A DNA stretch of 64,000 bases from Nitrososphaeria archaeon (GTDB lineage: Archaea; Thermoproteota; Nitrososphaeria; Geothermarchaeales; JDFR-13), in the NCBI GenBank assembly GCA_027078545.1, contig JALWXN010000004.1, forward strand, positions 160,001 to 224,000, written 5' to 3'. Shown here piece after piece: positions 20,835 through 42,028 of this stretch. A model generated the notes under the pieces. The model was not told the origin of the DNA. It saw nothing but the letters and a program-made list of their open reading frames with translations, and did not search any database. A program made the position numbers and the translations under genes. Each line of letters begins with the position of its first letter. Position 1 is the first letter of the stretch.

Positions 20835-22520
20835 TTATTTAATTATATTTGCTAGTATGCCCGCTAACAGACTCGTTCTTTTCTCTATTTCTTCTCCGCT
20901 CCATTTCTTATATTTATCAACTAAGTATTTGGTGTTTAATGCTAAACCCGATTTTTTATAAGTCTCTTCCTTTTCATTATAGTTTTTAGAACCTAACTTG
21001 ATGTTTTCATCCTCCTCTAAGAGAGTTAAATTTCCTATTTTATAAACTAATTCAGGATTATCTAGTTTATCACGACGACTAATTGGATAAATATGCTCTA
21101 GTGTCAGGTCTTTTGAGGGGCGTTTCGTGTTCTCAGAGCTCTCAATTTCAAACAGCAAAGCTTTAGCTAATCTTTCATGTTTTCTTTCCTTAAATAAGAA
21201 TTTAAGTAAACTTTGCTTAAACTCGTTATCCTCTGGAAATAGGTTACGCAGTTCTTGGTAATATTTTTCAGTGTTATTATTCTCAATAAGCTCTATCAAT
21301 CGTCGTATTTTCTTTTCAAATTCACTTGGTGATTTAGAACATATTGTTCGTCTTATAAGTGTATAATATAAAGGTTTTAGTTTCTTCTCTATCTCTTTGT
21401 CGTTTATATTTCCTTTAGGATCTGCATATTTTTCAAGAAGAGCAAACATAATGGGAATGTGTTGTCTTATACCGATGGAGAAAAGAGTAGTTAAATAATC
21501 CACTATTGTCTCTTTCTTCCAATATATTTTCGATGGTGCTGAGATGTTCCTGTAATATATATTAAGAAATCGTTCTAGTTCGTCGAAAAATTGTCTGACA
21601 TCATCAAGATTATTAATCCTCTTTTTTATTTCTTTAAAAATATCCTTTTCTCTTACAAAGTCATATTTGTATATAAGATAATATCTTATAACATATTTCA
21701 GTTCTCTACTTTCATATTCTGAGAGGAAGCTATTCCACTTTTCATCAAAACGTATAACCTGTGTTTGATCCTCAGAATTACTTAGAATACCTAGAAGATA
21801 GTTTTTTATAAGGTCTAGTGGAGCTAAGGTAAGCCCTCTAGCGTTTAAAGTTTCGAAAATTAGAAAAGCGTTATGTTCAGAGTCCACTTCTACTACTACA
21901 GTAATTATATTCTCTTTTATCCCGATGTCAACAATCTTACTTAACCATTCTTCAATTTTCTGATTATTTTTCTTTATTTCTCTATCTATAATTTTATAGG
22001 ACTCTACATAAGTTGTTAACATATTATTCCATGATGTATATTTTTTATCGTTTAGAAGTTTTCGCAGTTCCCTTTCCTTTTTCTGTAAAGAACCTTCTTT
22101 GATTGTTATAATTTTTTCGTAGAATTGTCTATCAATCTTATTAGGAATGACACTTAGTTTCTCATTGCCTACAACATCATGATGACGCATAAGAAACAGT
22201 GAATGGATCCTATTGCTAAATTTTGTATAATTCATATTAATAAGGTAGTCTCTTAGAGCAGCCAAGAAGAGACAGGTAGTTATTAGTCGTTGTTGACCAT
22301 CGATTACAACATATTTATTCCTACCCTTTGATGTTAGAACCATCGGACCAATAAAATATTCCTCTCTAGACCCTTGCTCTATGATATCTAAAATAAATTC
22401 CTTTGCTTCCTCTTTCCAAGAATAGCTTCTCTGATTAATAGGAACTTCAAAATCTCTTGTCTGCAACAACTGTCCTAATGTTTCACTCCTAACATCTGTT
22501 ACAACTTTTTTGTTACTCAT
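20835..22520 (-). CDS. GmrSD-type (DUF262 + DUF1524/HNH) modification-dependent restriction enzyme
   Basis: VP..QRSYSW, IDGQQR, FETLNARG..L...DLIKN, LEHIYP...IGNLTLL...N. Confidence 0.92.
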   Translation of the reverse strand: MSNKKVVTDVRSETLGQLLQTRDFEVPINQRSYSWKEEAKEFILDIIEQGSREEYFIGPMVLTSKGRNKYVVIDGQQRLITTCLFLAALRDYLINMNYTKFSNRIHSLFLMRHHDVVGNEKLSVIPNKIDRQFYEKIITIKEGSLQKKERELRKLLNDKKYTSWNNMLTTYVESYKIIDREIKKNNQKIEEWLSKIVDIGIKENIITVVVEVDSEHNAFLIFETLNARGLTLAPLDLIKNYLLGILSNSEDQTQVIRFDEKWNSFLSEYESRELKYVIRYYLIYKYDFVREKDIFKEIKKRINNLDDVRQFFDELERFLNIYYRNISAPSKIYWKKETIVDYLTTLFSIGIRQHIPIMFALLEKYADPKGNINDKEIEKKLKPLYYTLIRRTICSKSPSEFEKKIRRLIELIENNNTEKYYQELRNLFPEDNEFKQSLLKFLFKERKHERLAKALLFEIESSENTKRPSKDLTLEHIYPISRRDKLDNPELVYKIGNLTLLEEDENIKLGSKNYNEKEETYKKSGLALNTKYLVDKYKKWSGEEIEKRTSLLAGILANIIK

Positions 22521-22991
22521 TAGAATAACCTCCTAACGACTCTGAATATGTTACCTACTAGCTTGTAATATCTGTTAAATATTTGCTTCAATTACATATA
22601 TAAGTCGATTCCTTACACAAACACTGGGAAGAAAGTTCAAAGACTATATTAATTCCTTTATGTAAATAATTATTTCGAACAAGTTCCTCATTTAAGAACA
22701 TGGGTGGGAAACCTATTATAAACCTGAGTTTGCAACACTTTGTCTTATAGGTGTTCAGCTACGAGAAATATAGTATATTATATGCATATGAACATCTCCA
22801 TTGACAATAGTGATAATAATGATGTAAAAGTTTGAATGAATCTTCAAGAACATCCAGGACTTTCAGATAAATTGTGAAGGGGGAAAGGGTAGTCTGATAT
22901 ATATTCTACTTTCAATTAGATACTTCCAACCAAGACTTATCTATAACAAGTTAAAAAAATCAATGAAGAGGCCATAGAAAACCGGACAAAC

Positions 22992-22999
22992 TTTATAAA
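22992..22999 (+). promoter_or_regulatory. TATA box of tRNA-Asp promoter
   Basis: TTTATAAA preceded by purine-rich BRE-like bases, about 30 nt upstream of the tRNA. Confidence 0.7.
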
Positions 23000-23027
23000 A
23001 CCGGAGTCTGAAAATATAGAGTTGACT

Positions 23028-23125
23028 GCCCCGGTGGTGTAGCCCGGCCAGCATACCGGCCTGTCGACAAGTATCCACGGGCGGTCAGCCGGTGGACCCG
23101 GGTTCAAATCCCGGCCGGGGCGCCA
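23028..23125 (+). tRNA. tRNA-Asp(GTC) with 20-nt canonical 37/38 intron (23067-23086)
   Basis: Acceptor GCCCCGG/CCGGGGC, anticodon stem CCGGC/GCCGG, central BHB helix CTGT/GCGG, encoded CCA. Confidence 0.94.
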
Positions 23126-23195
23126 AAAGTCCTAATTATAACGGAAGGATTGAGAATACCTATGAGTCTAGCCCCTAGGATCTCTGATTCATTTT

Positions 23196-24596
23196 TCACT
23201 CTTCTACTCGGGTTATGGAGTTTCTTATTATCTTTATAAGCTCATTATCCGTCACCCGTTCGTCTCTCAGGTTCTTGAAGTCGTATCTGGTGATGATCAG
23301 TTTGTTTATGCCTCTTCCATCTATTATGAATTCGAACTCGAATTGGGGGTGGTCATCAAACACCTCGTTGAAGACCCCCTCTAGATAGGGATATATAAGA
23401 ATAGTATTGGGTATAGGGGCTTTCCCATCATCCTTGCCCTCCAAGACCCTATTTACCTTATGAGCCAGCCTCGAGTAGACATACATCTGCCTGACATCAT
23501 TAACATCTATCGGGATCTTGTCATACCCCTCCTTATCCTGGTCCTTAGATCCCTTCAGCTCTTTGTACTTTACATCCACTACCAGTAGGATCCTACGGTT
23601 CTTGGATACCGTGATGTCCGGATACTGTGCAAAGACTTCACTGTCCCTATTGATGCTCATGTCTCGTAACAGCTTACCGATGGGCCTTTGATGCACCACG
23701 TCATACCCAGTGAGCTCACGCTTCAGCAGTTGATAGATGAATCGTTCGAAGAGATCGTTCATCTTGATGAAGAATCCATAGACCTCCCTGCCCCTCCCCA
23801 CCTCTATCCTGTGGAGGAGTAGTCTCGCCAGATTGTATGGCCTCCTAAACCTCTCATTTAACCTGTTGAAGACCGGTTCCCGATTAGTTGCTAACACCTT
23901 TGTATCCCTGTACATTGTTACTTCGCTCAACATATGTGATATCAGCTTTGCATAGGTCACCGTATCCCTATGTCTAGACATCTGTTCACATAGAGCGGCT
24001 GCCAGACGGAGAACCCTATTTAGTTCGTTATCCATGGACAGTGTATACTGCTCCTGTGTAAAGGTTATGAGCTGGTGTGGAAGCTTCCTAATCTGTCTAG
24101 AGACCAGTAGCTTCCCCCTAAGGAATGGCTCATCATAAACCCTCCTAATGTATCTACGGTATACCCCGTTCTGAAGCTCCCTATAGAGCATGAACGTATA
24201 TAGATACATTAGAACCTCGTGCAACGCCCTCTCAGACACCCCTCTCTTCCTGAGCATAGCATGGGACTCCTTCAACTCCAGCTGTAGCGCTGTGTCGAGC
24301 ATCCTAATGAACGCGATAGCCTCATCCTGTGTATCGAACAACCCTCTATCCCTAGCCCTCTTAAAAACCTTGGGGAATATGGTGAGGTTTATCCCATCTA
24401 CATGTCCAAACCCGACATACTGGTTAGTATAGATGTTGACCTCTCCCCCCAGCCCAAGCTGGATCCTCAATATTCTCTCACGATTGATTACAACCCTCTC
24501 CTCTATCAGGGCTAACTCCCTCTCCGATACTCCTAGCTCCTCCTTCTTAAACGTAGCTCCTGGCTCGTAGATCGCTAAATCCTTAGCTCTCCTCAT
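23196..24596 (-). CDS. mcrC: McrC-family PD-(D/E)XK nuclease subunit
   Basis: YVG, LRGKL, DNELNR, MNDLFERFI, PDI...VDVKYK, D..QMY.Y. Confidence 0.92.
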   Translation of the reverse strand: MRRAKDLAIYEPGATFKKEELGVSERELALIEERVVINRERILRIQLGLGGEVNIYTNQYVGFGHVDGINLTIFPKVFKRARDRGLFDTQDEAIAFIRMLDTALQLELKESHAMLRKRGVSERALHEVLMYLYTFMLYRELQNGVYRRYIRRVYDEPFLRGKLLVSRQIRKLPHQLITFTQEQYTLSMDNELNRVLRLAAALCEQMSRHRDTVTYAKLISHMLSEVTMYRDTKVLATNREPVFNRLNERFRRPYNLARLLLHRIEVGRGREVYGFFIKMNDLFERFIYQLLKRELTGYDVVHQRPIGKLLRDMSINRDSEVFAQYPDITVSKNRRILLVVDVKYKELKGSKDQDKEGYDKIPIDVNDVRQMYVYSRLAHKVNRVLEGKDDGKAPIPNTILIYPYLEGVFNEVFDDHPQFEFEFIIDGRGINKLIITRYDFKNLRDERVTDNELIKIIRNSITRVEE

Positions 24597-26581
24597 CAGC
24601 CCTCCTCTTCTTTTCTGGCCTGTGACGAGCCGCTACCCTTCAACCTCTCCCGGAATTTTTCAAGACCTTCTATATTGTTGAGCTCTTCCATCCACTCTCT
24701 TGGATCCTTCAGATGGTACTTACCACCCCTTTCACTGAGGAAAACACTTGATAGGCCTCCCAATACAACGGCGAGGTCATCCCACCTATTATAGAAATAC
24801 TCCTGTAAAAGAGGCATTATCCTATACACCCATACCTCTTTAAACGTCTCAAATGCATCATTTTCGTTTTTGGATCCAGCTAAGACCTCGAGGAAATAGC
24901 TATGCCCAATCCTATGATCCCTATCCAAGTAACTCTCAATTCTCTCGTTCAAAACCTCCAGGATCTCCTTCAGATGCTTTGCCAGCTCCTCCTTCTCCTC
25001 GCCAATCTTTCTAGCCACTTCTACCAGGGTATCGGGATCGGGGGGTATCTCGAGGAATGCAAACCGTCTCCTCAATGCATAGTCGACAAGGGCGATACTC
25101 TTATCCGCAGTATTCATGGTACCGATAATATAGAGGTTTGGAGGAACCGCGAATAGCTCCTTTGAATAGGGCAGGGTTACCAACACGTAATTCTCTCCAA
25201 ACAGCCTCTTATCCATCTCCAGGCAAGTAATCAACTCACCAAGTATCCTAGCCAAGTCACCCCTGTTTATCTCATCAATAACCAGATAGAACTTGCGAAC
25301 AGACTCACCTGATTCGTCATATTTTTTCTTATACTCATTAAGATCATCTGGGTTTTTAAGAATCTCACTAACGCCTTTCTTATAGCCTAGATCTTCAAGT
25401 AGGGCTTCTAAGGCCCTACGAGCCAGATCCTTAAACACACCATCCTCAACCTTATACATTATTCTACCCTTTTCATCGGTCACGGCTCTATAGCCCTCAA
25501 CAAACTCCTCATAACTATATGATGGATGGAAAGTGACAACCTCATAGAGATCTTTATTGCCACAAGTCACCCCATCCACGTATTTCAGAGCAAGAAAAGT
25601 CTTACCCGTACCAGGAGGACCATACAAAACAACCTGTCCATACATCTTTAGAAGATTATCAATATCTGAATATCTTTCCTCCTCTCTTAAGTTATCCTTC
25701 TCTTGATCATTATGGTTGCCATTGTGGTTACCCTCTTCCTTCGAGTGTTGGCCATTATTGTGTGTATAGAGATATATGAAACCAGAAAACCAAACAGTTT
25801 TGTATTTCACCCTACAAATCATATTTTTATTCAGTATTTCGTTGAAATTCAAATAATGAATTTCCATAAGATATTTTCTCACATAAATTTCGGGTTCATT
25901 TTCAATTTCTTTCACCTTTGGAAGATGGTTACATGTTTTTGAAAAGGCTATGGCATTACTATCATATGGACAAAATATCTTCGGATTAATCAAAAATAAT
26001 CCTTGAGTTAATTTTGGTACTCTTATCCCAGGTTCTGATCGTATTTCCTTAAATCTTTTAGAAAAGTAGCTTATGTCATTAACAAGATCCTCTATGGTAT
26101 CATAATTACTTATTCTTTCCCCAAATTCCCATAACTTGGGGACGATGTCCTCGATGTTATTGCTATCGGGATCAAAGAAGAATCTTCGCTTTGGGGAGGG
26201 TTGTAATGGCTGCCCGGTTCCAACTGGTAAATCATATTTTTTGCTAGTTCTTTTAATGCGTATCTCTTCTGGACGGATAGGTTTTTTACTTCTTCCTGCA
26301 GTATGGATAGAATAAATTATCGTAAATGGATCAATTAAATATTTTCCTTCTTTACTCTTAAACTTCTCCTTTTCCATTTTAATGCTTACTATTGATGTTA
26401 GTTCATCCACTAGTTCTTCATAAAACAATGCTTCTTCCTCGGGATCGGTCTTGACCTTCCTCCATTCGTCGAACAAATCTTTCCAGAACTCTAAGTATTT
26501 CTCGACCCAGTTATCATTATAACCTTTCATTAATGCCCTAATTTTTTGGTCGTGTTTCTTAATGCATTCCTCTAATGGCAT
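24596..26581 (-). CDS. mcrB: McrB-family AAA+ GTPase
   Basis: GPPGTGKT, TFHPSYSYEEFVEG, IDEINRG, GTMNTAD, ALRRRF, IGHSYF, PLLQEYF. Confidence 0.95.
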   Translation of the reverse strand: MPLEECIKKHDQKIRALMKGYNDNWVEKYLEFWKDLFDEWRKVKTDPEEEALFYEELVDELTSIVSIKMEKEKFKSKEGKYLIDPFTIIYSIHTAGRSKKPIRPEEIRIKRTSKKYDLPVGTGQPLQPSPKRRFFFDPDSNNIEDIVPKLWEFGERISNYDTIEDLVNDISYFSKRFKEIRSEPGIRVPKLTQGLFLINPKIFCPYDSNAIAFSKTCNHLPKVKEIENEPEIYVRKYLMEIHYLNFNEILNKNMICRVKYKTVWFSGFIYLYTHNNGQHSKEEGNHNGNHNDQEKDNLREEERYSDIDNLLKMYGQVVLYGPPGTGKTFLALKYVDGVTCGNKDLYEVVTFHPSYSYEEFVEGYRAVTDEKGRIMYKVEDGVFKDLARRALEALLEDLGYKKGVSEILKNPDDLNEYKKKYDESGESVRKFYLVIDEINRGDLARILGELITCLEMDKRLFGENYVLVTLPYSKELFAVPPNLYIIGTMNTADKSIALVDYALRRRFAFLEIPPDPDTLVEVARKIGEEKEELAKHLKEILEVLNERIESYLDRDHRIGHSYFLEVLAGSKNENDAFETFKEVWVYRIMPLLQEYFYNRWDDLAVVLGGLSSVFLSERGGKYHLKDPREWMEELNNIEGLEKFRERLKGSGSSQARKEEEG

Positions 26582-27122: not shown

Positions 27123-27279
27123 CCCCCCGTAGCTCAGTGGCTAGAGCGGCCGGCTGTAGCTGTCTCGGCCCACGGATGACTGGGCGTATGCCTTGGGTTG
27201 AGTCCGTGGCGGCCGGCGGAGACAGGGCGATGTCCCCTCCAGCGGCAGGTCGTGGGTTCAAATCCCACCGGGGGGACCA
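27123..27279 (+). tRNA. tRNA-Tyr(GTA) with two introns: 37/38 (27160-27221, 62 nt) and 39/40 (27224-27242, 19 nt)
   Basis: C1-G72 acceptor CCCCCCG/CGGGGGG plus A-CCA; removing both introns gives perfect arm GCCGG-CTGTAGA-CCGGC; both introns fit BHB geometry. Confidence 0.88.
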
Positions 27280-35615: not shown

Positions 35616-35670
35616 TTTTGTTATGTTGTTTGTTGTGCTATTGTTTTGATTGTTGTTTCTAGGTGTTTGT
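35616..35670 (+). terminator. T-rich tract after the processing stem, probable terminator region
   Basis: Run of T-rich sequence immediately 3' of the stem; overlaps the end of a convergent gene. Confidence 0.4.
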
Positions 35671-36556
35671 TGAGTTGTTGTGTTGTTTTTGGTGGGTTGG
35701 TTGTTTCTATTCTGTTTTTTCGGGTTTGTTTGTAGTTGTGGGGTTTTAGTGTTTTTTTGAGTTTTTGTAGGGTTTTTTGTTTGTTGGTTTCGATTCTTAT
35801 TATGTATCCTTGTGGTTCGTCGTAGATCATTAGGGTTATGTGTGTGTCTGGCTGGGGTTTGTAGTGTGCCTCTATTTGTGGCCATCCCCAGTTCTGTGTT
35901 GATTCTAGGATTGGTGGTAGGTTGTTTTTGAGTGATTCTTCGAGTATTTTTCGGGCTATGTCTAGGTATGTCCTCATCTTCTCCCTCTTTGTTTGTTGGC
36001 GTGGGCGGGTGTGTCTTGTTATTCGTTCTTGTGTTACTTGTTTGAGTGTGTCTATTCCTTGTCTGACTAGGTTTTTTATGTGGGTTGTGTCGAGGGTTTC
36101 TAGTCTGTATCTGAGGATGGTGAATGCTACTCCGTCTGGGTGGATCTGTTCCTCTATGTCTAGTCCTTGTTGCCGTAGCTTCTCCGCGTTTTTTCTGCGT
36201 ATGTGGTGGTATTTGAAGGCTTCTGGGTATTTCTGCATTAGTTGTTGTAGGAATTCTCCTTTCCATGCTCCTTCCATTGGTTTTACTTCTTCCCATTCCT
36301 GGTCTAGGTCGAAGAGGATTGTTTCGAAGATCTTCTCTTTTGGTGTCTCGAGGGCTAGGATCATGTTGTCCATGTCTATCCAGATGGCTTCTATGGAGTA
36401 GTCCTCGATCAGGCTTACGGTTACTGATCGGTGGTCTATGGCTGTGGCTATCTCTGGGGGTATGGTCTCGTCCTCTAGTACTAGCTCGGTTATGACCCTC
36501 ATCAGGTCGTATGCCTTTGTTAGGCTCCTCATAACTCCCCCCTCTTCTCCTCCCAA
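35621..36556 (-). CDS. Hypothetical protein, paralog of 37293-38222
   Basis: 311-aa ORF sharing the YPEAF block and overall layout with the neighbouring 309-aa ORF; SD GGAGGGGG before ATG 36532. Confidence 0.75.
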   Translation of the reverse strand: MGGEEGGVMRSLTKAYDLMRVITELVLEDETIPPEIATAIDHRSVTVSLIEDYSIEAIWIDMDNMILALETPKEKIFETILFDLDQEWEEVKPMEGAWKGEFLQQLMQKYPEAFKYHHIRRKNAEKLRQQGLDIEEQIHPDGVAFTILRYRLETLDTTHIKNLVRQGIDTLKQVTQERITRHTRPRQQTKREKMRTYLDIARKILEESLKNNLPPILESTQNWGWPQIEAHYKPQPDTHITLMIYDEPQGYIIRIETNKQKTLQKLKKTLKPHNYKQTRKNRIETTNPPKTTQQLNKHLETTIKTIAQQTT

Positions 36557-36665: not shown

Positions 36666-37331
36666 ATGAGGCTTGCTTTACTGTCTCTCGCTTTGGGAGC
36701 CATATTTCTATATGTTGTCCTTAGTTATCCTCTGGTCTATCCTCTAGCTGAAAAAGATGGTAGAAGGGTATGTCTCGACTTAGAGGCGCTGGAGATAGAT
36801 ATGACGATTATCGTTGTTGGTGAGACTAGTGCCTATGTAGATGGGGTTATAGAGGTGTATATAGATAGGGGTATGGGGGTTGTACGTCTAGAGCCTGATG
36901 ATCTAGATGATTTTGACTGGATGGAGGTTGATGGGCTCGGCATAGTCGTGTTCTATGGCGATTGGCTGGCCAGCCATGTGTCAGACCCGAGGATAGCAGG
37001 CTTTATTGCTGAAATCGAGTTTGATAGGATAGGTCTTGTAGCGATCGATGGCAATACATCTAGCCTCTTTACCCTTCTGGATATGGTGGGTATCTATAAA
37101 CTTGTACAAGAGGGTGGTGTAAAGTGGAACCCTGCATATTCAAATCCTCATGTGGTGGGGTATATGCATCTTGAGGGGGTGATGCCTAATGGAAGCATAT
37201 ACTACTTCCCCTCGATCTTAATGTCGAATAGTAGGCTTGAGATAGATGCGGCTATCGCGATTGCCAATTGGATGGCTGGTGAAGACTACGAGTCAGAGCT
37301 GGACTGTGAATGGGTCCAGCTCCCGGGGTAG
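36666..37331 (+). CDS. Hypothetical protein with N-terminal membrane anchor/signal peptide
   Basis: Hydrophobic N-terminus, acidic globular remainder. Confidence 0.65.
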   Translation: MRLALLSLALGAIFLYVVLSYPLVYPLAEKDGRRVCLDLEALEIDMTIIVVGETSAYVDGVIEVYIDRGMGVVRLEPDDLDDFDWMEVDGLGIVVFYGDWLASHVSDPRIAGFIAEIEFDRIGLVAIDGNTSSLFTLLDMVGIYKLVQEGGVKWNPAYSNPHVVGYMHLEGVMPNGSIYYFPSILMSNSRLEIDAAIAIANWMAGEDYESELDCEWVQLPG

Positions 37332-38222
37332 TGTATCCCTAATCCACTGCCTCAGTCTTAGTGTTCCTATGAATACTTCTCTGTATAGTAGCTTCTCTGT
37401 ATGGAGTGTCTCTTTATACCTGCCCGTCTCTAGTAGTTCCCGGCGTTTCTCGGGTGTCGCGGGCCTCATCACTACATGGTATTTATGGCTGTCCATCTCT
37501 ATCTCTAGGGCTTTGACCAGCCTGCTCTTCTCCGTTCTGATATGGATCGCCGTGGGGGTCAGGTTGGATAGGTATACTGCCTGGGGTGTCTCGCCGATCC
37601 TGAGTAGGCTCTTCAGAGCAGTCTTCGCGGTCTCGTATAGCTCGTCTGTCGTCCTGGTCTCCCCCCTCCTATAGTAGGGATCGGCGGCGTCTCGATCCCT
37701 ACCCATCTCCCTACACCATCTCTGGAATGCCTCGGTGGCCTCCCTTGTCCTTGCGAGTATCTCGCCCGGCCCCCACCTGGCTATACGGAGCTTTAGCCTC
37801 GTATATGTATAGCTGTTCCGATCCACAATCGTCTCCAGCCTAATATTCATCTCCCTCGAGACTTTCTGAGCCGCCTCACGGGACATATCTAGATGTCTGA
37901 AGGCCTCGGGATACCTCTCCCTAAGGCTCTCTAGGGTGCTGGGGCTACTCCAGTCATCCACGTCCGAGAACTCGTCCTCCGCCCCGGGGTATAGCTGGGC
38001 TATCATCTCGGCTAGCTCATAGCCACCGCTCCTCGCCTCTAGCAGCCTGCCCTGCCGCCTAAGCTCCAGCTCCTCCAGCCTATCATCATCTAGGGTGATG
38101 AGGACCCTCCCCTCGTTTATGGATATGGAATAGTATGGGGCGAATATCGTCTCCCCGATTAGGTGCTTGGCGGCCAGATACGACATATCCAGGTTCTCCC
38201 GGATCTTCCCATGTCTAGTCAT
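37293..38222 (-). CDS. Hypothetical protein, paralog of 35621-36556
   Basis: 309-aa ORF with host-like codon use, start overlaps the stop of the upstream nuclease gene. Confidence 0.78.
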   Translation of the reverse strand: MTRHGKIRENLDMSYLAAKHLIGETIFAPYYSISINEGRVLITLDDDRLEELELRRQGRLLEARSGGYELAEMIAQLYPGAEDEFSDVDDWSSPSTLESLRERYPEAFRHLDMSREAAQKVSREMNIRLETIVDRNSYTYTRLKLRIARWGPGEILARTREATEAFQRWCREMGRDRDAADPYYRRGETRTTDELYETAKTALKSLLRIGETPQAVYLSNLTPTAIHIRTEKSRLVKALEIEMDSHKYHVVMRPATPEKRRELLETGRYKETLHTEKLLYREVFIGTLRLRQWIRDTLPRELDPFTVQL

Positions 38223-39441
38223 CTCGATCCCTCCAAAGGATTATGTATCCCTTATTACTCCTATGGTCGTAGCCAATTATTACGACAATTCTGGATAGTT
38301 TTTCCACCCGCCGATTCAGTAGGTCCTTTCCAACTACTCGTGTCAGCAGATCATAGTATTCACTGACTTGTTTAACGGCATTCTTTAAGGATCTCCTCCC
38401 TTCCCTTTCTTCAAACCTATACTTTATCTCTGCTACATACATCTCATTCTCGATAAATCCTATTATATCGGGTCTGCGATTAGCGAGGATCTCCCTTAAT
38501 ACATCTTTATAGGGATCGTGTTTAGTGGGCTCAACATACACTTCACGTATTCCGATGCTGTACAGGAAATTGATGGCTAAACTCTTCCCCAGGACGTCTC
38601 TTTTAGTCATGAACCCATCATTCCTTCCTTCTAGACGGTCTTTATGACTCTCCCTCATTATGGTGTCGGCTAGACTTCTAAGATTTTCATCCCTTATCCT
38701 GTATGTATACCTCTCTACTTCCAAGCCCGCTATTCTGGTTTTCTCTTTTTCGAGTATCTCCAACGAATCCGAAATAGGTTTAAAAAGCTTCTTCTTAACA
38801 TTCTTCTCGACGTCAAGAGACGTCTTCTTAAGCTTCTTTCCATGTCTGTAGTATAGATCGATGCTATATAGGGAGCTCTCTAACTTCTCGACTCTGTAAA
38901 CTGCTGGTCTAGATCCTCGCCTAGGTTCTACTATCCATAAATTAGCTTTTCCAAGTTTCATCTGAAACTTGAGTGTTACTACTTGACCTGCACGTGTTTT
39001 GCTGGGATACTCAGCTAGTAGTGCCACTCCACATCCTCTCTCCTTTTCATAGCTCCATCTCTCAGTGGATAGATATACGTCTCCCATCTTGACTACTATC
39101 TGGTTTATGTTGATGCTTAGAACTATTGGTAAGGTTTTCCTTATCGCTTCGTTAAAGTCTTTTATAAAATTGTAGACGTTGAAGGGTTTGATATTTACCC
39201 AATATTCCCCAGGCTTAAGGCCGCTAAACATTATTTCCTTCTCTTTCTCGCCCCCAAGGTGTCTCCAGTAGTAGATATACTGTTCTCCATCGTGGATCTC
39301 TAATTTGAAGACATCTGTACCCAGCATGTCGCGGGCATATTCAAATGTCAGACCGTGAATAACCAGTGTAGGGTATTTACCTCTCCTAATGACCGCGTTT
39401 GCAAGTATCTCAATGGACTCAGGCCTTATAGTTTCTCCCAC
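38215..39441 (-). CDS. Protein with C-terminal PD-(D/E)XK nuclease-like domain
   Basis: RRPDIIG...YVAEIKY...AVKQVSEY; N-terminal 270 aa unrecognised. Confidence 0.72.
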   Translation of the reverse strand: MGETIRPESIEILANAVIRRGKYPTLVIHGLTFEYARDMLGTDVFKLEIHDGEQYIYYWRHLGGEKEKEIMFSGLKPGEYWVNIKPFNVYNFIKDFNEAIRKTLPIVLSININQIVVKMGDVYLSTERWSYEKERGCGVALLAEYPSKTRAGQVVTLKFQMKLGKANLWIVEPRRGSRPAVYRVEKLESSLYSIDLYYRHGKKLKKTSLDVEKNVKKKLFKPISDSLEILEKEKTRIAGLEVERYTYRIRDENLRSLADTIMRESHKDRLEGRNDGFMTKRDVLGKSLAINFLYSIGIREVYVEPTKHDPYKDVLREILANRRPDIIGFIENEMYVAEIKYRFEEREGRRSLKNAVKQVSEYYDLLTRVVGKDLLNRRVEKLSRIVVIIGYDHRSNKGYIILWRDRDD

Positions 39442-39444
39442 GGT

Positions 39445-41037
39445 TTACACACCGTGTTCCTTAGATTTTCCAAATAGTTGGAATGGATTTACACCCTCTA
39501 GGATCTCCACTTCTCCGCTATGGGTGATGTATACTCCTCCGGGTCTTAGTAGTCTGGCTGGTTCTCTGTAGGATCCCCACCTCCCAGGCGTGGCTATCCT
39601 CCTCTCCCTGTCTATGTAGGGCTCTTCGATATAGTCTGTTACTAGCCATCCATCCTCACCTATCCCCCTGCCTAGATCCTCGATGGCCGCCTCCCTGGGT
39701 TTTCCACTGGGGCCTAGAAGCCTAATAGTCACGTCGAAGCCTCCTCCCCAGGTCTCCTTCCTTATGGTCATGGATCCCCATCTAGCTGTTAGGACTAGTC
39801 TGGTGACTAGTTCTCTAACCTGGGCTTCACCCTGGTCAGGACTCTCCTCTACTAGGTCTATACCCCTGTATAGGAGGCTGTCGAGTAGGCGGCCTATGTT
39901 GGCCCTGCCTGGCGGCATGTCCCATACCAGGATTATCCTGGTGTCCCGATGTGTATCTATCCATGCTCTAAACTCTTCCAGCACTTGTATGGATATCCGG
40001 CTGGTGTCGAATACCCGGCCCGTCAGGACTAGGTATCTAGGCCTATGCTCACCAGCCATCTTGAGGCCCAGTCTCCATAGGCTGTGCCTCCCACCTATCA
40101 TGAGGTCGTTTAGTATCAAGAGGTCGTCATACGTCTCTAGGATGAGGTCGTATCTCTCCACCCTGTAGTCCCTACTCTCCTCCCCAGCGTAGTGCCTAAT
40201 CAGTTCACGGCTTATCATGAGGTTGTGGAGGGATATGTACCGCCTCTCCCTCCTGAGCCTAGGCCCCGTGGCCAGGCACACATCGCAGTTACAGTGGTAG
40301 AACCCCCTCCTAATGTCTATGGCCTCGCCCAGCCCTCCATACACCGTCATCCTAGTGGCGTCGATAAACCATGAGTATCCAGCCAGCCTTATCCTCTCCG
40401 GATCCAGAGCCATCAGGTCGGGGATGTGCCTAGGCCCGGCCCCACCAAGTACCAACACCTCCTTGAATGGGTATTCGAGGATGAGCTCTAGGAGGTGCTT
40501 CAGATATTCATGGGTGTATCTGATGCCTGCTAGCCCAGCCCTCCTGAGGTAGGGCTCTATATACTGGTTTGTGGATAGGTAGGGAGACGCATGTATAGCC
40601 ACGGTCTCGAAGCCCAGCTCAGCCAGCCTCTCACATGCATATCTCTTATGCTCGGGGTAAGCCCCCTTTACAAGGGGTATTATGTTGAACCTCCCCCTAA
40701 GCCTCTCCACCACCTCTAGAGACTTCAATGTGTTTCGCCAGCTGGCCTCCTCATCGTCTAGATATGTGGGGGTGTCCCAGGCTATTATATAGTCGAAGCC
40801 ATGCTCCGAGGCGAATCCTAGGAAGTCTTGTAGCGTCTCCTCCCTCTCCAGATACTCGTCAGGCATGATGCTTGAGAGTATCAGCTTTATACCGGGGTTG
40901 GCCTCCCTAATAAGACGTATATCCTCCGGGCTTATCACCACCTCGTAGTATGGTAGGACTGCATATCCAAAGTGGTGGGCCGCCTCGGCGAAGATCCTCA
41001 ACGCGTCTCTACCGACTATGGGGATGAAGTGGTCCAT
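39445..41037 (-). CDS. Fusion of degenerate tRNA-guanine transglycosylase (TGT)-fold domain and degenerate metallophosphoesterase-fold domain
   Basis: D.I.AWDTPT, PLVKG, VLG.AGP, CNCDVC...LHNL zinc site; C-terminal LLILNDLMIG, LVLTGRVFD, TPGRW. Confidence 0.72.
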   Translation of the reverse strand: MDHFIPIVGRDALRIFAEAAHHFGYAVLPYYEVVISPEDIRLIREANPGIKLILSSIMPDEYLEREETLQDFLGFASEHGFDYIIAWDTPTYLDDEEASWRNTLKSLEVVERLRGRFNIIPLVKGAYPEHKRYACERLAELGFETVAIHASPYLSTNQYIEPYLRRAGLAGIRYTHEYLKHLLELILEYPFKEVLVLGGAGPRHIPDLMALDPERIRLAGYSWFIDATRMTVYGGLGEAIDIRRGFYHCNCDVCLATGPRLRRERRYISLHNLMISRELIRHYAGEESRDYRVERYDLILETYDDLLILNDLMIGGRHSLWRLGLKMAGEHRPRYLVLTGRVFDTSRISIQVLEEFRAWIDTHRDTRIILVWDMPPGRANIGRLLDSLLYRGIDLVEESPDQGEAQVRELVTRLVLTARWGSMTIRKETWGGGFDVTIRLLGPSGKPREAAIEDLGRGIGEDGWLVTDYIEEPYIDRERRIATPGRWGSYREPARLLRPGGVYITHSGEVEILEGVNPFQLFGKSKEHGV

Positions 41038-41189: not shown

Positions 41190-41441
41190 GTGCTGGTAAC
41201 GGTGTCTATAAAGGTTAGGAGGGAGGTCGTGGATCTGGCTGATAAGATGGTCCGCCTCGGCCTGGCTAGGAGTAGGTCCCACGCCTTCAACAGGATGATT
41301 GAGAAGGGTCTGGATAAGATTCGGGAGGAGGTGGGCTTCTGGGAGGATACGCTCATTAGGCTTGAGGATCTCTCCAGATCTGGTTATAGGATCAGGCATG
41401 GAGGCCTCTCGAGGCTTTTGGTGGAGGGTAGGAGCAGGTGA
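41190..41441 (+). CDS. vapB: VapB-type antitoxin (ribbon-helix-helix-like)
   Basis: VTVSIKV strand-helix-helix, SRS motif; 4-nt overlap with PIN gene. Confidence 0.8.
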   Translation: MLVTVSIKVRREVVDLADKMVRLGLARSRSHAFNRMIEKGLDKIREEVGFWEDTLIRLEDLSRSGYRIRHGGLSRLLVEGRSR

Positions 41442-41839
41442 TATGTCTAGACACAGATATAATTATCTCCTACCTCGACGAGCTGGATCCTAACCATCAA
41501 ACAGCTGTGGAGCTCCTATCAGGGATACGTGGCAGGAGAGTGGTGAGCTGGTTGACCATAGTCGAGCTATCCAGCGTCTATTCACGGGCGGGTATGGAGT
41601 CTCCAGCAGCGCTGGCCCTATACTCCATCGAGAAGGTAGGAGCCGAGCTGGTCGACCTAGACATGGAGACGGTCATTAGGGAGGCCCTCAAACTATCCAG
41701 CCGGCTACGCCTTAAGACACTCGACCTGCTACACATATCTGCCTCCCTACAGGCCGGGTGTAGGTTCTTCATGACGCTGGACAAGGAGATTAGGAAGGCG
41801 TCTGATGAGATTGGGAAGATGGGGATTAGGATAATATGA
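41438..41839 (+). CDS. vapC: VapC PIN-domain toxin
   Basis: LDTDII, VEL, LKTLDLLHI, MTLD. Confidence 0.9.
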   Translation: MICLDTDIIISYLDELDPNHQTAVELLSGIRGRRVVSWLTIVELSSVYSRAGMESPAALALYSIEKVGAELVDLDMETVIREALKLSSRLRLKTLDLLHISASLQAGCRFFMTLDKEIRKASDEIGKMGIRII

Positions 41840-41951: not shown

Positions 41952-42028
41952 GGGCCCGTAGCTCAGCCTGGCGGAGCACCGGGCTCATAACCCGGGGGTC
42001 GTGGGTTCAAATCCCACCGGGCCCACCA
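41952..42028 (+). tRNA. tRNA with CAT anticodon, most likely tRNA-Ile2 (agmatidine-modified)
   Basis: Cloverleaf with CTCATAA loop; acceptor stem GGGCCCG identical to tRNA-Ile(GAT) in this window; no A1-U72. Confidence 0.9.

What the first reader, a model, noticed from the sequence alone, without database searches (positions are those of the whole stretch)
37293..41037. Candidate new defence operon: pseudo-TGT/pseudo-phosphoesterase fusion + PD-(D/E)XK nuclease + unknown protein
Seen: three tightly coupled minus-strand genes (3-nt gap, 8-nt overlap). The first follows the archaeal TGT fold motif by motif (DYIIAWDTPT, PLVKG, VLGGAGP, CNCDVC...LHNL zinc site) but both catalytic aspartates appear lost (DSG motif reads ILSSIM; FDSASY reads LAGYSW) while the base-binding Asp (WDTP) is kept. 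It has no PUA domain; instead the C-terminus resembles a calcineurin-like phosphoesterase with metal ligands lost (NDLMIG for SDLHLG, TGRVFD for GD.FD, no GNHD). The second gene ends in an intact PD...EIK...Q...Y nuclease motif. Established: TGT-fold DpdA proteins insert 7-deazaguanines into DNA, and viruses use these bases against restriction. Inference: a non-catalytic reader of deazaguanine-modified DNA, free base or tRNA coupled to a nuclease effector. It lies between the 16S gene and VapBC/tRNA-Ile2, in a genome region rich in modification-dependent restriction.
Basis: partly seen in the sequence, partly recalled or inferred. Interest (0 to 1): 0.75.

Follow-up and report, generated by a model that had tools for sequence, protein, structure and literature searches.

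The report
Nucleophile-less TGT-fold protein with glycine-tagged nuclease
An archaeon that makes no 7-deazaguanine carries a conserved three-gene cassette: a tRNA-guanine-transglycosylase look-alike without its key catalytic residue, a DNA-cutting enzyme whose first residues carry a rare conserved glycine tag, and an unknown protein. It is most likely an undescribed virus-defence or selfish DNA module, not a tRNA-modifying enzyme.

Summary
The three minus-strand genes are real, intact and translationally coupled. They recur as a trio in Candidatus Geothermarchaeota, once in permuted order.

- **Gene 1** has a confident TGT barrel (ArcTGT Z 23.2, DpdA Z 20.5). The zinc site and base-binding Asp88 are kept. 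No Asp sits at the nucleophile position. Invariant Asp60 aligns with the general acid/base Asp, so only one catalytic Asp is clearly lost.
- **Its C-terminus** is a calcineurin-type phosphoesterase fold with no conserved His.
- **Gene 2** ends in an invariant PD...E.K motif.

New here:
- All 17 genomes searched in this order lack canonical TGT and QueC.
- Distant relatives across TACK archaea keep the same fusion with intact phosphoesterase motifs.
- The adjacent partner protein starts Met-Gly-Gln-Tyr/Phe/His in at least three unrelated protein families. No ORF among 953 in this genome starts that way. The tag recalls the glycine-tagged partners of Cap10 and QatC.

Best reading (0.4): a conflict cassette in which the TGT-like subunit holds the nuclease's glycine tail. 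The deazaguanine-reader idea is untested. Earlier scan reports on other genomes read the distant relatives as mobile cassettes beside tRNA genes, which is a serious rival.

The parts
39445..41037 (-). Gene 1, 530 aa: TGT-fold domain fused to a degenerate calcineurin-like phosphoesterase domain
   Evidence: ORF. It has 14 homologs at 33-94% identity. The AF2 model has pLDDT 87.8. PADLOC model 'TGT' matches at 4e-12, while no Pfam family matches.
40174..41037 (-). TGT-like (beta/alpha)8 barrel, residues 1-288. Zinc site C249/C251/C254/H271. Conserved pocket residues S55, D60, D88, K124, H149, G198, G220, W223. No Asp at the nucleophile position.
   Evidence: Fold matches. hhalign to ArcTGT gives probability 98-99%. 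Invariant columns across near and distant relatives.
39448..40161 (-). Degenerate metallophosphoesterase-fold domain, residues 293-530. Motifs read NDLMIG, LTGRVFD and TDYIEEP where distant relatives have SDLHIG, GDTFD and GHxH.
   Evidence: Domain model of pLDDT 84.2. PDB matches are all of the calcineurin-like superfamily. Motif comparison in A7. Pfam Metallophos hits occur only in the distant relatives.
38215..39441 (-). Gene 2, 408 aa: starts GTG-GGA (Met-Gly). It has an N-terminal domain of about 215 aa with weak Ig/beta-sandwich hints, and a C-terminal PD-(D/E)XK core (D325, E338, K340).
   Evidence: Alignment A5. One homolog gives a weak AHJR-like REase hit, E 0.004. The Atlas search gives leads to Tox-REase-7 and AHJR-like. 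The start codon was read directly.
37293..38222 (-). Gene 3, 309 aa: orphan protein with a conserved W91 and a YPEAF-type motif. No family was found.
   Evidence: Alignment A6. No hits in Pfam, NCBIfam, PADLOC or the Atlas. Always present in the trio.
35621..36556 (-). Orphan paralog of gene 3. It is the remnant of a second cassette that is complete in a close relative.
   Evidence: It is 95% identical to the third gene of the second cassette in L004, where a TGT-like gene and a nuclease gene precede it.
36666..37331 (+). 221-aa ORF with a hydrophobic N-terminus, lying between the two cassettes. Probably not part of the system.
   Evidence: A 46%-identical homolog sits in the same place in L004. 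No family was found.
41190..41839 (+). VapB-like gene plus VapC (PIN) toxin-antitoxin pair, which separates the cassette from tRNA(CAT) at 41952-42028
   Evidence: Pfam PIN at 1e-17. tRNA found by ARAGORN and Rfam.

Best explanation
The three genes are one accessory 'conflict' cassette. It belongs to an undescribed family of TACK archaea built around a TGT-fold protein that has lost the transglycosylase nucleophile but keeps the zinc site and a conserved base-type pocket. The family's hallmark partner is the adjacent protein, which begins Met-Gly-(Gln-Tyr/Phe/His) whatever its fold. In this window the partner is a PD-(D/E)XK nuclease that starts Met-Gly-Glu-Thr. Proposed working (inferred, not shown): the initiator Met is removed and the glycine tail of the nuclease docks in the TGT-like pocket, as the glycine tail of CdnD sits in Cap10. 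Gene 1, whose dead phosphoesterase domain would serve as a scaffold, is then the recognition or regulatory subunit, and gene 2 cuts DNA when released or directed. Gene 3 is an obligatory third subunit of unknown role. The biological role is most likely antiviral defence. It is neither tRNA archaeosine formation nor deazaguanine marking of the cell's own DNA.
For: The trio is conserved at 25-40% identity in eight or more loci, and as gene2-gene3-gene1 in one locus. No Asp occupies the nucleophile position in any of 13 near and distant relatives, while S55, D60, K124, H149, G220 and W223 are invariant and D88 nearly so. Met-Gly begins all eight aligned gene-2 homologs. In three further relatives a GTG-GGN start gives the same reading. 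In distant relatives the gene immediately downstream of the TGT-like gene, often overlapping its end, starts MGQY/F, and one convergent neighbour reads MGQH. These partners fall into at least three families with no BLAST or HMM similarity to one another. In this genome 0 of 953 ORFs of 200 aa or more have a start followed by GQ[YFH]. Precedent exists: Cap10 (TGT-like) holds the modified Gly2 tail of CdnD, and QatB needs its MGTS tail (bioRxiv 10.1101/2025.04.06.647259; PMC13279940). Gene 1 matches PADLOC 'TGT' at 4e-12 but not Pfam TGT, and has Lys at the Cap10 K154-type position. The cassette behaves as an accessory element: it is found in 8 of 13 family genomes plus this one, with up to three divergent copies per genome. 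The nuclease is missing or fragmented in two close relatives at the same chromosomal site. Toxin-antitoxin genes lie beside or inside several copies.
Against: No experiment or structure shows the two proteins binding. The window's own tag (MGET) departs from the MGQY consensus. There is no QueC-like conjugating enzyme in the cassette or the genome, so the Cap9/Cap10 chemistry cannot apply as such. Outside this window the cassettes lie among ordinary metabolic genes rather than in defence islands. No PADLOC model hits genes 2 or 3. Earlier scan reports read the distant relatives as selfish mobile cassettes, which the docking mechanism would not exclude but the 'defence' label would.
Confidence: 0.4

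Rival explanations
1. One reading: gene 1 is a non-catalytic reader of 7-deazaguanine, in viral DNA, as free base or in tRNA, and it licenses the PD-(D/E)XK nuclease. That would make this a type IV-like, modification-dependent restriction system.
For: The base-binding Asp88 and the Gly-rich loop are kept and the nucleophile is lost. The whole order lacks TGT and QueC, so any 7-deazaguanine in the cell would be foreign. Twelve Ligamenvirales and two Bicaudaviridae viruses encode genes of this pathway (PMC6884629). Glycosylases that attack deazaguanine-modified phage DNA exist (bioRxiv 10.1101/2025.10.29.685425). GmrSD and McrBC lie 11-16 kb away.
Against: There is no evidence for the ligand. 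The pocket differs from TGT, DpdA and Cap10 (Ser-Ser for Asp-Ser, Lys for Gln, His149). The model does not explain the partner's glycine tag. Other copies are not in defence islands. The distant relatives carry an active phosphoesterase and a Cys cluster that the model does not use.
Confidence: 0.2
2. A small selfish, homing-type DNA cassette. The nuclease cuts a chromosomal target near tRNA or rRNA genes, and the TGT-like protein, a tRNA/tDNA binder by ancestry, selects the site or helps repair. The element spreads and then decays.
For: Earlier scan reports on other genomes describe the distant relatives as multi-copy three-gene cassettes beside tRNA genes, one bracketed by a 53-bp repeat and none with an integrase. 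Those relatives are homologous to gene 1 at E 1e-65 to 1e-33. In my loci a tRNA gene lies within about 50-250 bp of the cassette end in L027, L049 and L050. The window copy sits between 16S rRNA and tRNA(CAT). Several divergent copies occur per genome, tandem copies occur at one site, and the nuclease decays in close relatives. The flanks are ordinary metabolic genes.
Against: No flanking direct repeats were found in the window, L027 or L050, and only a weak 16-nt pair in L049. No empty site could be recovered, because the G003 contig ends at the junction. Copies within a genome are only 30-40% identical, so there has been no recent burst. There is no match in the phage or plasmid collections. 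Most tier-1 copies are not next to a tRNA found by ARAGORN.
Confidence: 0.25
3. A divergent housekeeping replacement for ArcTGT that modifies tRNA in a lineage that lost the canonical enzyme.
For: No PF01702 match was found in this genome or in 16 other genomes of its order, while every genome of five other families in the class has one. The closest solved fold is ArcTGT.
Against: It is absent from 5 of 13 family genomes and from both other families of the order, and present in up to three divergent copies elsewhere. It has no nucleophile Asp and no PUA or C-terminal tRNA-binding domains. There is no preQ0 pathway to supply a substrate. It is always coupled to a nuclease.
Confidence: 0.03
4. 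A minimal Dpd-like restriction-modification system. Gene 1 would insert a deazaguanine into host DNA, and gene 2 would restrict unmodified DNA.
For: DpdA is the second-best structural match, Z 20.5. A nuclease gene is adjacent.
Against: The three active-site Asp residues are invariant in TGT and DpdA, and D256A kills DpdA (PMC10164549). Here the nucleophile is absent. There is no QueC, QueD, ArcS, DpdB or DpdC.
Confidence: 0.03

Closest known systems
Cap10 with its CD-NTase CdnD (type IV CBASS), and the related QatB-QatC pair of QatABCD
   Same: A TGT-fold protein is encoded next to an effector whose extreme N-terminus carries a conserved Met-Gly motif. Gene 1 matches the PADLOC 'TGT' model at 4e-12. 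From memory, not checked, I take that model to be the type IV CBASS accessory protein. Lys occupies the position where Cap10 has the base-reading K154. Cap10 (9ntn_B) is a structural match at Z 16.7.
   Different: There is no QueC-like Cap9/QatC and no 7-deazaguanine synthesis in the host. There is no CD-NTase. The tag is MGQY rather than MGGSGG or MGTS. Cap10's essential D248 nucleophile has no counterpart. An extra phosphoesterase-fold domain is present. The system is archaeal.
Archaeosine tRNA-guanine transglycosylase (ArcTGT, PDB 1iq8) and bacterial TGT
   Same: ArcTGT is the best structural match (Z 23.2, 266 residues, 20% identity). The CxCxxC...H zinc site, the base-binding Asp and the Gly-rich loop are shared.
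   Different: There is no nucleophile Asp, no Pfam TGT match, and no C1/C2/PUA domains. The gene is not universal in its lineage and is coupled to a nuclease.
DpdA, the DNA preQ0 insertase of the Dpd system (PDB 7ui4)
   Same: TGT fold without a PUA domain (Z 20.5). A His lies in the pocket region (DpdA H181, here H149). The locus has a nuclease.
   Different: DpdA keeps all three Asp residues and needs DpdB/ATP and preQ0. None of these is present here.
QTRT2 and the B subunits of DNA polymerases alpha, delta and epsilon (catalytically dead members of the same two folds)
   Same: QTRT2 is a TGT fold without catalysis that is used for partner binding (Z 19.1). The polymerase B subunits are phosphoesterase folds without metal ligands that are used as scaffolds (Z 9.5-10.8).
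   Different: Those are eukaryotic or replicative housekeeping subunits. Here both dead folds are fused in one accessory protein.
Three-gene 'TGT-fold + LAGLIDADG + orphan' cassettes reported earlier by this scan in Brockarchaeota and Bathyarchaeia (no paper found)
   Same: They have a homologous TGT-like domain with the same invariant residues and the same missing nucleophile, a three-gene layout, several copies per genome and signs of decay. I find that their middle gene carries the same MGQY start.
   Different: Those copies have an N-terminal CX3CX2C cluster, an intact phosphoesterase domain and a different middle gene. The earlier reports call that gene LAGLIDADG, but here only one weak Pfam hit supports this. 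The window's clade has a dead phosphoesterase and a PD-(D/E)XK nuclease.

Membership tests
TGT / ArcTGT / DpdA transglycosylases (PF01702) | (beta/alpha)8 TGT barrel with the CxCxxC...H zinc site | tested here: met
   Fold matches. The zinc motif is invariant and aligns to 1iq8.
TGT / ArcTGT / DpdA transglycosylases (PF01702) | Nucleophile Asp (D249 ArcTGT, D280 TGT, D256 DpdA) | tested here: not met
   hhalign places R217 or A219 there and the strand register places G220. None of 13 near and distant relatives has Asp at any of these columns.
TGT / ArcTGT / DpdA transglycosylases (PF01702) | General acid/base Asp (D95 / D102) | tested here: inconclusive
   hhalign aligns invariant D60 (IMPD) with IMTD. 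The model's strand 51-55 would instead put S55 there. Model coordinates cannot be read.
TGT / ArcTGT / DpdA transglycosylases (PF01702) | Base-binding Asp (D130 / D156) | tested here: met
   D88 in WDxPT aligns with D130 of 1iq8.
TGT / ArcTGT / DpdA transglycosylases (PF01702) | Match to the curated family model | tested here: not met
   There is no Pfam or NCBIfam hit at E up to 1. The A1 profile against the PDB finds 1iq8 only at E 1.5e-4.
Type IV CBASS Cap10-type module | Partner protein with a conserved N-terminal Met-Gly tail | tested here: met
   Background is 0 of 953 ORFs. The motif differs, being MGQY/MGET rather than MGGSGG.
Type IV CBASS Cap10-type module | QueC-like Cap9 and a CD-NTase in the operon; catalytic D248 | tested here: not met
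   No QueC in the genome or the order. The operon genes have no such domains. The nucleophile is absent.
Calcineurin-like metallophosphoesterases (PF00149 / PF12850) | Fold | tested here: met
   All 50 best matches belong to this superfamily, Z 7-11.
Calcineurin-like metallophosphoesterases (PF00149 / PF12850) | Metal-binding motifs DxH, GD, GNH(D/E), H, GH, GxH | tested here: not met
   No invariant His in the domain. The motifs are present in the distant relatives P0037, P0041 and P0053, which do hit Pfam Metallophos.
PD-(D/E)XK nucleases | D ... (D/E)xK catalytic motif | tested here: met
   D325, E338 and K340 are conserved in all seven full-length homologs and in L028b and L038.
PD-(D/E)XK nucleases | Restriction-endonuclease-like fold or a family model match | tested here: inconclusive
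   Only a weak AHJR-like hit (E 0.004, one member) and Atlas leads below 0.9.
Dpd restriction-modification system | DpdA with DpdB and DpdC, plus a preQ0 supply | tested here: not met
tRNA-linked three-gene mobile cassette (earlier scan reports, undescribed in papers) | Homologous TGT-like first gene and a three-gene layout | tested here: met
tRNA-linked three-gene mobile cassette (earlier scan reports, undescribed in papers) | Insertion directly beside a tRNA gene, with flanking repeats or empty sites | tested here: inconclusive
   A tRNA lies within 50-250 bp in L027, L049 and L050, but 0.9 kb away in the window. No clear repeats were found. No empty site was recovered.

The most novel reading that the evidence does not exclude
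The missing Asp nucleophile is supplied in trans. The TGT-like pocket flips a guanine-type base out of target DNA or RNA, invariant Asp60 protonates the leaving base, and the free alpha-amine of the partner's Gly2 (exposed after Met removal) attacks C1'. This would be a split glycosylase/lyase, or a protein-nucleic-acid conjugating enzyme. It would be comparable to the N-terminal Pro of Fpg/Nei or Thr2 of T4 endonuclease V, and to the target attachment proposed but not yet shown for Cap10. It would tether or aim interchangeable effectors (PD-(D/E)XK or other nucleases) at their substrate.
Probability: 0.1. Interest if true: 0.9.

Novelty: new variant of a known kind. Interest (0 to 1): 0.68.

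Why it matters
TGT-fold proteins are known to act on tRNA, on DNA (DpdA) and, since 2025, on a protein N-terminus (Cap10). This family would add an archaeal branch that lacks the transglycosylase nucleophile, in hosts that make no 7-deazaguanine at all. It is nonetheless always paired with a protein bearing a rare, conserved Met-Gly-Gln-Tyr start. If the glycine tail docks in the pocket, the tagged-effector logic of type IV CBASS and QatABCD is older and wider than the QueC chemistry. The effectors would then be swappable: an intact phosphoesterase in cis, or a PD-(D/E)XK or another protein in trans. The cassette also gives a compact test case of three genes and about 3.7 kb for deciding whether such modules are immune systems or selfish elements. 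Separately, it shows that a whole archaeal order (Geothermarchaeota) apparently lives without archaeosine.

Tried and rejected
- **Complex prediction of gene 1 with gene 2.** It returned no verdict (score 0.02, controls not run), so it says nothing either way.
- **Single-sequence and profile searches of the PDB for genes 1, 2 and the tier-2 partners.** Only the ArcTGT zinc region came back for gene 1. Genes 2 and the partners gave nothing significant.
- **Pfam, NCBIfam and PADLOC on genes 2 and 3 and on all members of their alignments.** No reliable family was found.
- **ESM Atlas for genes 2 and 3.** Gene 2 gave only leads below 0.9. Gene 3 gave nothing.
- **tblastn of gene 1 against the phage and plasmid collections.** No match.
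- **Search for terminal direct repeats around the cassette in the window, L027, L049 and L050.** Nothing convincing.
- **Search for an empty site in same-genus genomes without the gene.** The only syntenic contig, G003:C3, ends at the junction.
- **Literature search for a TGT-like plus calcineurin-like defence system.** Nothing relevant. The first Cap10 search timed out.
- **LAGLIDADG identity of the tier-2 partners, claimed in earlier scan reports.** Here only one weak LAGLIDADG_3 hit was found (E 7e-4), so I do not assert it.
- **Readings considered and rejected.** I rejected an ArcTGT replacement and Dpd-like self-marking; see the rival explanations.
- **Residue-level superposition on TGT, DpdA or Cap10.** This was not possible because model coordinates are not exposed. 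The D60 versus S55 question therefore stays open.

Full report
**What is there.**
The three minus-strand ORFs are 39445-41037 (530 aa), 38215-39441 (408 aa) and 37293-38222 (309 aa). They exist exactly as described, with a 3-nt gap and an 8-nt overlap, and every quoted motif is in the translations. All three are full length compared with their homologs.

By contig titles of near relatives, the organism is a member of Candidatus Geothermarchaeota. G002 (WAKB01) is 95% identical in gene 1. G008 is Geothermarchaeum rappei JdFR-14 and G007 is Scotarchaeum otlingeri JdFR-13. The genome has 1.24 Mb and is 92% complete.

**Gene 1, N-terminal domain.**
No Pfam or NCBIfam model matches. The PADLOC model 'TGT' matches residues 50-165 at 4e-12.

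An AlphaFold2 model built on 15 sequences is confident (pLDDT 87.8, pTM 0.84). Residues 1-288 match the following:
- ArcTGT 1iq8: Z 23.2, 266 residues, rmsd 3.3.
- DpdA 7ui4: Z 20.5.
- Bacterial TGT: Z 20.1.
- QTRT2: Z 19.1.
- Cap10 9ntn_B: Z 16.7.
- Generic TIM barrels follow at Z 14.6 or lower.

C249, C251, C254 and H271 are invariant and align with the ArcTGT zinc motif. WD88 aligns with the base-binding D130.

In DpdA and TGT three Asp residues are invariant, and mutating the general acid/base or the nucleophile abolishes activity (PMC10164549). Here no alignment puts an Asp at the nucleophile position. hhalign gives R217 or A219 (probability 98-99%), and the model's strand register gives G220. 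None of these columns holds Asp in any of 13 near and distant relatives.

The general acid/base position is different. Both hhalign runs align the invariant D60 of ILSSIMPDEY with the Asp of IMTDSG. The strand register of the model would instead put S55 there. So one catalytic Asp is clearly lost and the other is possibly kept.

S55, D60, K124, H149, G198, G220 and W223 are invariant, and D88 nearly so, across proteins only 23-25% identical to this one. This argues for a conserved pocket rather than a decayed enzyme.

**Gene 1, C-terminal domain.**
Folded alone (pLDDT 84.2), residues 288-530 match only calcineurin-like phosphoesterases: LpxH Z 11.1, the catalytically dead B subunit of Pol epsilon Z 10.8, YfcE Z 10.5 and Mre11 Z 10. 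The domain has no invariant His.

Its motifs read NDLMIG, LTGRVFD and TDYIEEP. Distant relatives read SDLHIG, GDTFD and GHxH at the same places, and those relatives do hit Pfam Metallophos. It derives from an apparently active fusion partner.

**Genes 2 and 3.**
Gene 2 has a conserved D325...E338-x-K340 motif in all seven full-length homologs. Its other leads are weak: AHJR-like and Tox-REase-7. Its N-terminal region of about 215 aa is an independent module, because it occurs as a tandem pair without a nuclease domain in L003. Gene 3 matches nothing.

**Linkage and dynamics.**
The trio recurs in L001 (interrupted by a toxin-antitoxin pair), L003, L004, L026, L027, L028 and L031. In a third copy in G007 it occurs as gene 2-gene 3-gene 1.

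The family is found in 8 of 13 genomes of the taxonomic family plus this one, with up to three copies that are only 30-40% identical to each other. It is not found in the other families of the class.

At this very chromosomal site, close relatives differ:
- L004 has cassette A without the nuclease, plus a complete cassette B.
- The window has a complete cassette A, plus only the third gene of B (35621-36556, 95% identical to the L004 gene).
- L035 has an intact gene 1, a fragmented nuclease and a gene 2/3 chimera.

This is the behaviour of an accessory, conflict-type module.

**The host has no 7-deazaguanine pathway.**
PF01702 finds nothing in this genome or in 16 other genomes of its order. 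Those 16 include a one-contig genome. All genomes of five other families of the class score 1e-60 or better. QueC is likewise missing from all 17, and QueD and ArcS are missing from this genome.

Self-marking of DNA and archaeosine formation are therefore very unlikely.

**A wider family and a tagged partner.**
An exhaustive profile search found 128 proteins. Beyond the Geothermarchaeota clade there is a second tier of 530-617 aa proteins, found in MAGs labelled Thermoprotei, Thermoproteales, Thermofilaceae, Culexmicrobium, Brockarchaeota and Nitrososphaerota. These proteins have:
- the same TGT-like domain, with the same invariant residues and no nucleophile;
- an intact phosphoesterase domain;
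- often an N-terminal CX3CX2C cluster.

Their neighbours are not homologous to genes 2 or 3. Yet the gene immediately downstream, often overlapping the stop codon, begins MGQY or MGQF in L036, L046, L047, L048, L049, L050 and L052. A convergent PD...E.K protein in L038 can be read from a GTG as MGQH.

In the Geothermarchaeota, gene 2 begins MGQYK or MGQYR (four copies), MGQTKK (two) and MGE (two, including the window, which starts GTG-GGA). Further copies begin MGQYS and MGSF.

By BLAST and HMM these partners form at least three unrelated families. In the window's genome, 8% of 953 long ORFs have Gly after the first start codon. One has Gly-Gln there. None has any early start followed by GQ[YFH].

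This tag is the strongest new observation. It has a precedent. Cap10, the TGT-like protein of type IV CBASS, holds the deazaguanylated Gly2 tail (MGGSGG) of its CD-NTase in the base pocket. QatB needs its MGTS tail for QatC.

**Defence or selfish element?**
GmrSD and McrBC lie in a low-GC island 11-16 kb away, and a VapBC pair abuts the cassette. Housekeeping genes separate the island from the cassette, however. In G007 and G008 the cassettes sit among metabolic genes.

Earlier reports of this scan, on other genomes, describe what are evidently my second-tier relatives as multi-copy three-gene cassettes inserted beside tRNA genes, without an integrase. In my loci a tRNA gene lies within about 50-250 bp of the cassette in L027, L049 and L050. 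In the window it lies 0.9 kb away, with 16S rRNA on the other side.

I found no flanking repeats, no empty site and no phage or plasmid copy. Both roles remain open.

**Most likely working.**
Shown:
- a conserved trio;
- a TGT pocket without the nucleophile;
- a dead phosphoesterase domain in this clade;
- a PD-(D/E)XK motif;
- a rare N-terminal tag on the partner;
- no host deazaguanine pathway.

Inferred:
- the glycine tail of the nuclease docks in the TGT-like pocket;
- gene 1 is the recognition or regulatory subunit and gene 2 the DNA-cutting effector;
- gene 3 is an obligatory third subunit;
- the role is a genetic conflict, with defence somewhat more likely than homing.

It leaves the tag unexplained.

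The boldest reading not excluded is that the partner's Gly2 amine replaces the missing Asp nucleophile, as in Fpg/Nei-type glycosylase-lyases.

**Comparison and novelty.**
This is not a member of TGT/DpdA (nucleophile test failed), of Cap10 modules (no Cap9, no CD-NTase, no D248) or of active metallophosphoesterases. It works most like a Cap10-type 'TGT-like protein plus glycine-tagged effector' pair.

No paper in the searchable library describes it. The scan has met the distant relatives before on other DNA. The Geothermarchaeota form (dead phosphoesterase, PD-(D/E)XK partner) and the family-wide tag are new here.

Noticed in passing
whole genome G000 and 16 relatives: No canonical TGT or QueC was found in any of the 17 genomes searched in this order (Geothermarchaeota and two sister families). 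QueD and ArcS are also missing from this genome. All genomes of five other families of the class have TGT. The lineage probably has no archaeosine in its tRNA.
   Followed up: partly
window 20835-26581: A low-GC island (32-44% GC) carries a GmrSD-type type IV restriction enzyme (PADLOC HEC-06, 1e-89) and a McrB (AAA_5) plus McrC pair. It is bounded by intron-containing tRNA genes that Rfam finds but ARAGORN misses (23028-23122, 27123-27276).
   Followed up: partly
L036, L037, L038 and proteins P0036, P0041, P0053: Distant relatives of gene 1 carry an N-terminal CX3CX2C...CGG cysteine cluster, a radical-SAM-like or Fe-S-like spacing, ahead of the TGT barrel. They also have an intact phosphoesterase domain. 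The window's clade has neither.
   Followed up: no
L003:1662-2975: A 437-aa protein consists of two tandem copies of the N-terminal domain of gene 2 (E 1e-56 and 1e-72 to the gene-2 profile), with no nuclease domain. It lies two genes upstream of that locus's TGT-like gene.
   Followed up: no
L035:11597-13450 (JGI 3300003178, close relative): At the same chromosomal site gene 1 is intact (89% identical). Gene 2 is split into a 166-aa piece and a 320-aa chimera with gene 3 (P0017). This looks like nuclease decay in progress.
   Followed up: partly
L030:8336-9021, L034:6049-6722, L038:8536-9268: A homologous two-gene pair (an RHH_12-like protein plus a protein of about 140-160 aa, 37-40% identical between lineages) lies next to the TGT-like gene in unrelated archaea. 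It may be a toxin-antitoxin pair travelling with the cassette.
   Followed up: no
window 35621-36556: The orphan gene-3 paralog beside the 16S gene ends in a Q/T/K/N/P-rich low-complexity tail, encoded by the strongly G/T-skewed stretch just after the rRNA gene. An earlier scan note covers this.
   Followed up: no
L047:6554-7150, L052:6560-7183: The third genes of two tier-2 cassettes carry small DNA-binding-type helix motifs (RecX_HTH1 at 9e-8; SAP and LEM weakly). The third gene of the window's clade has no detectable motif.
   Followed up: no
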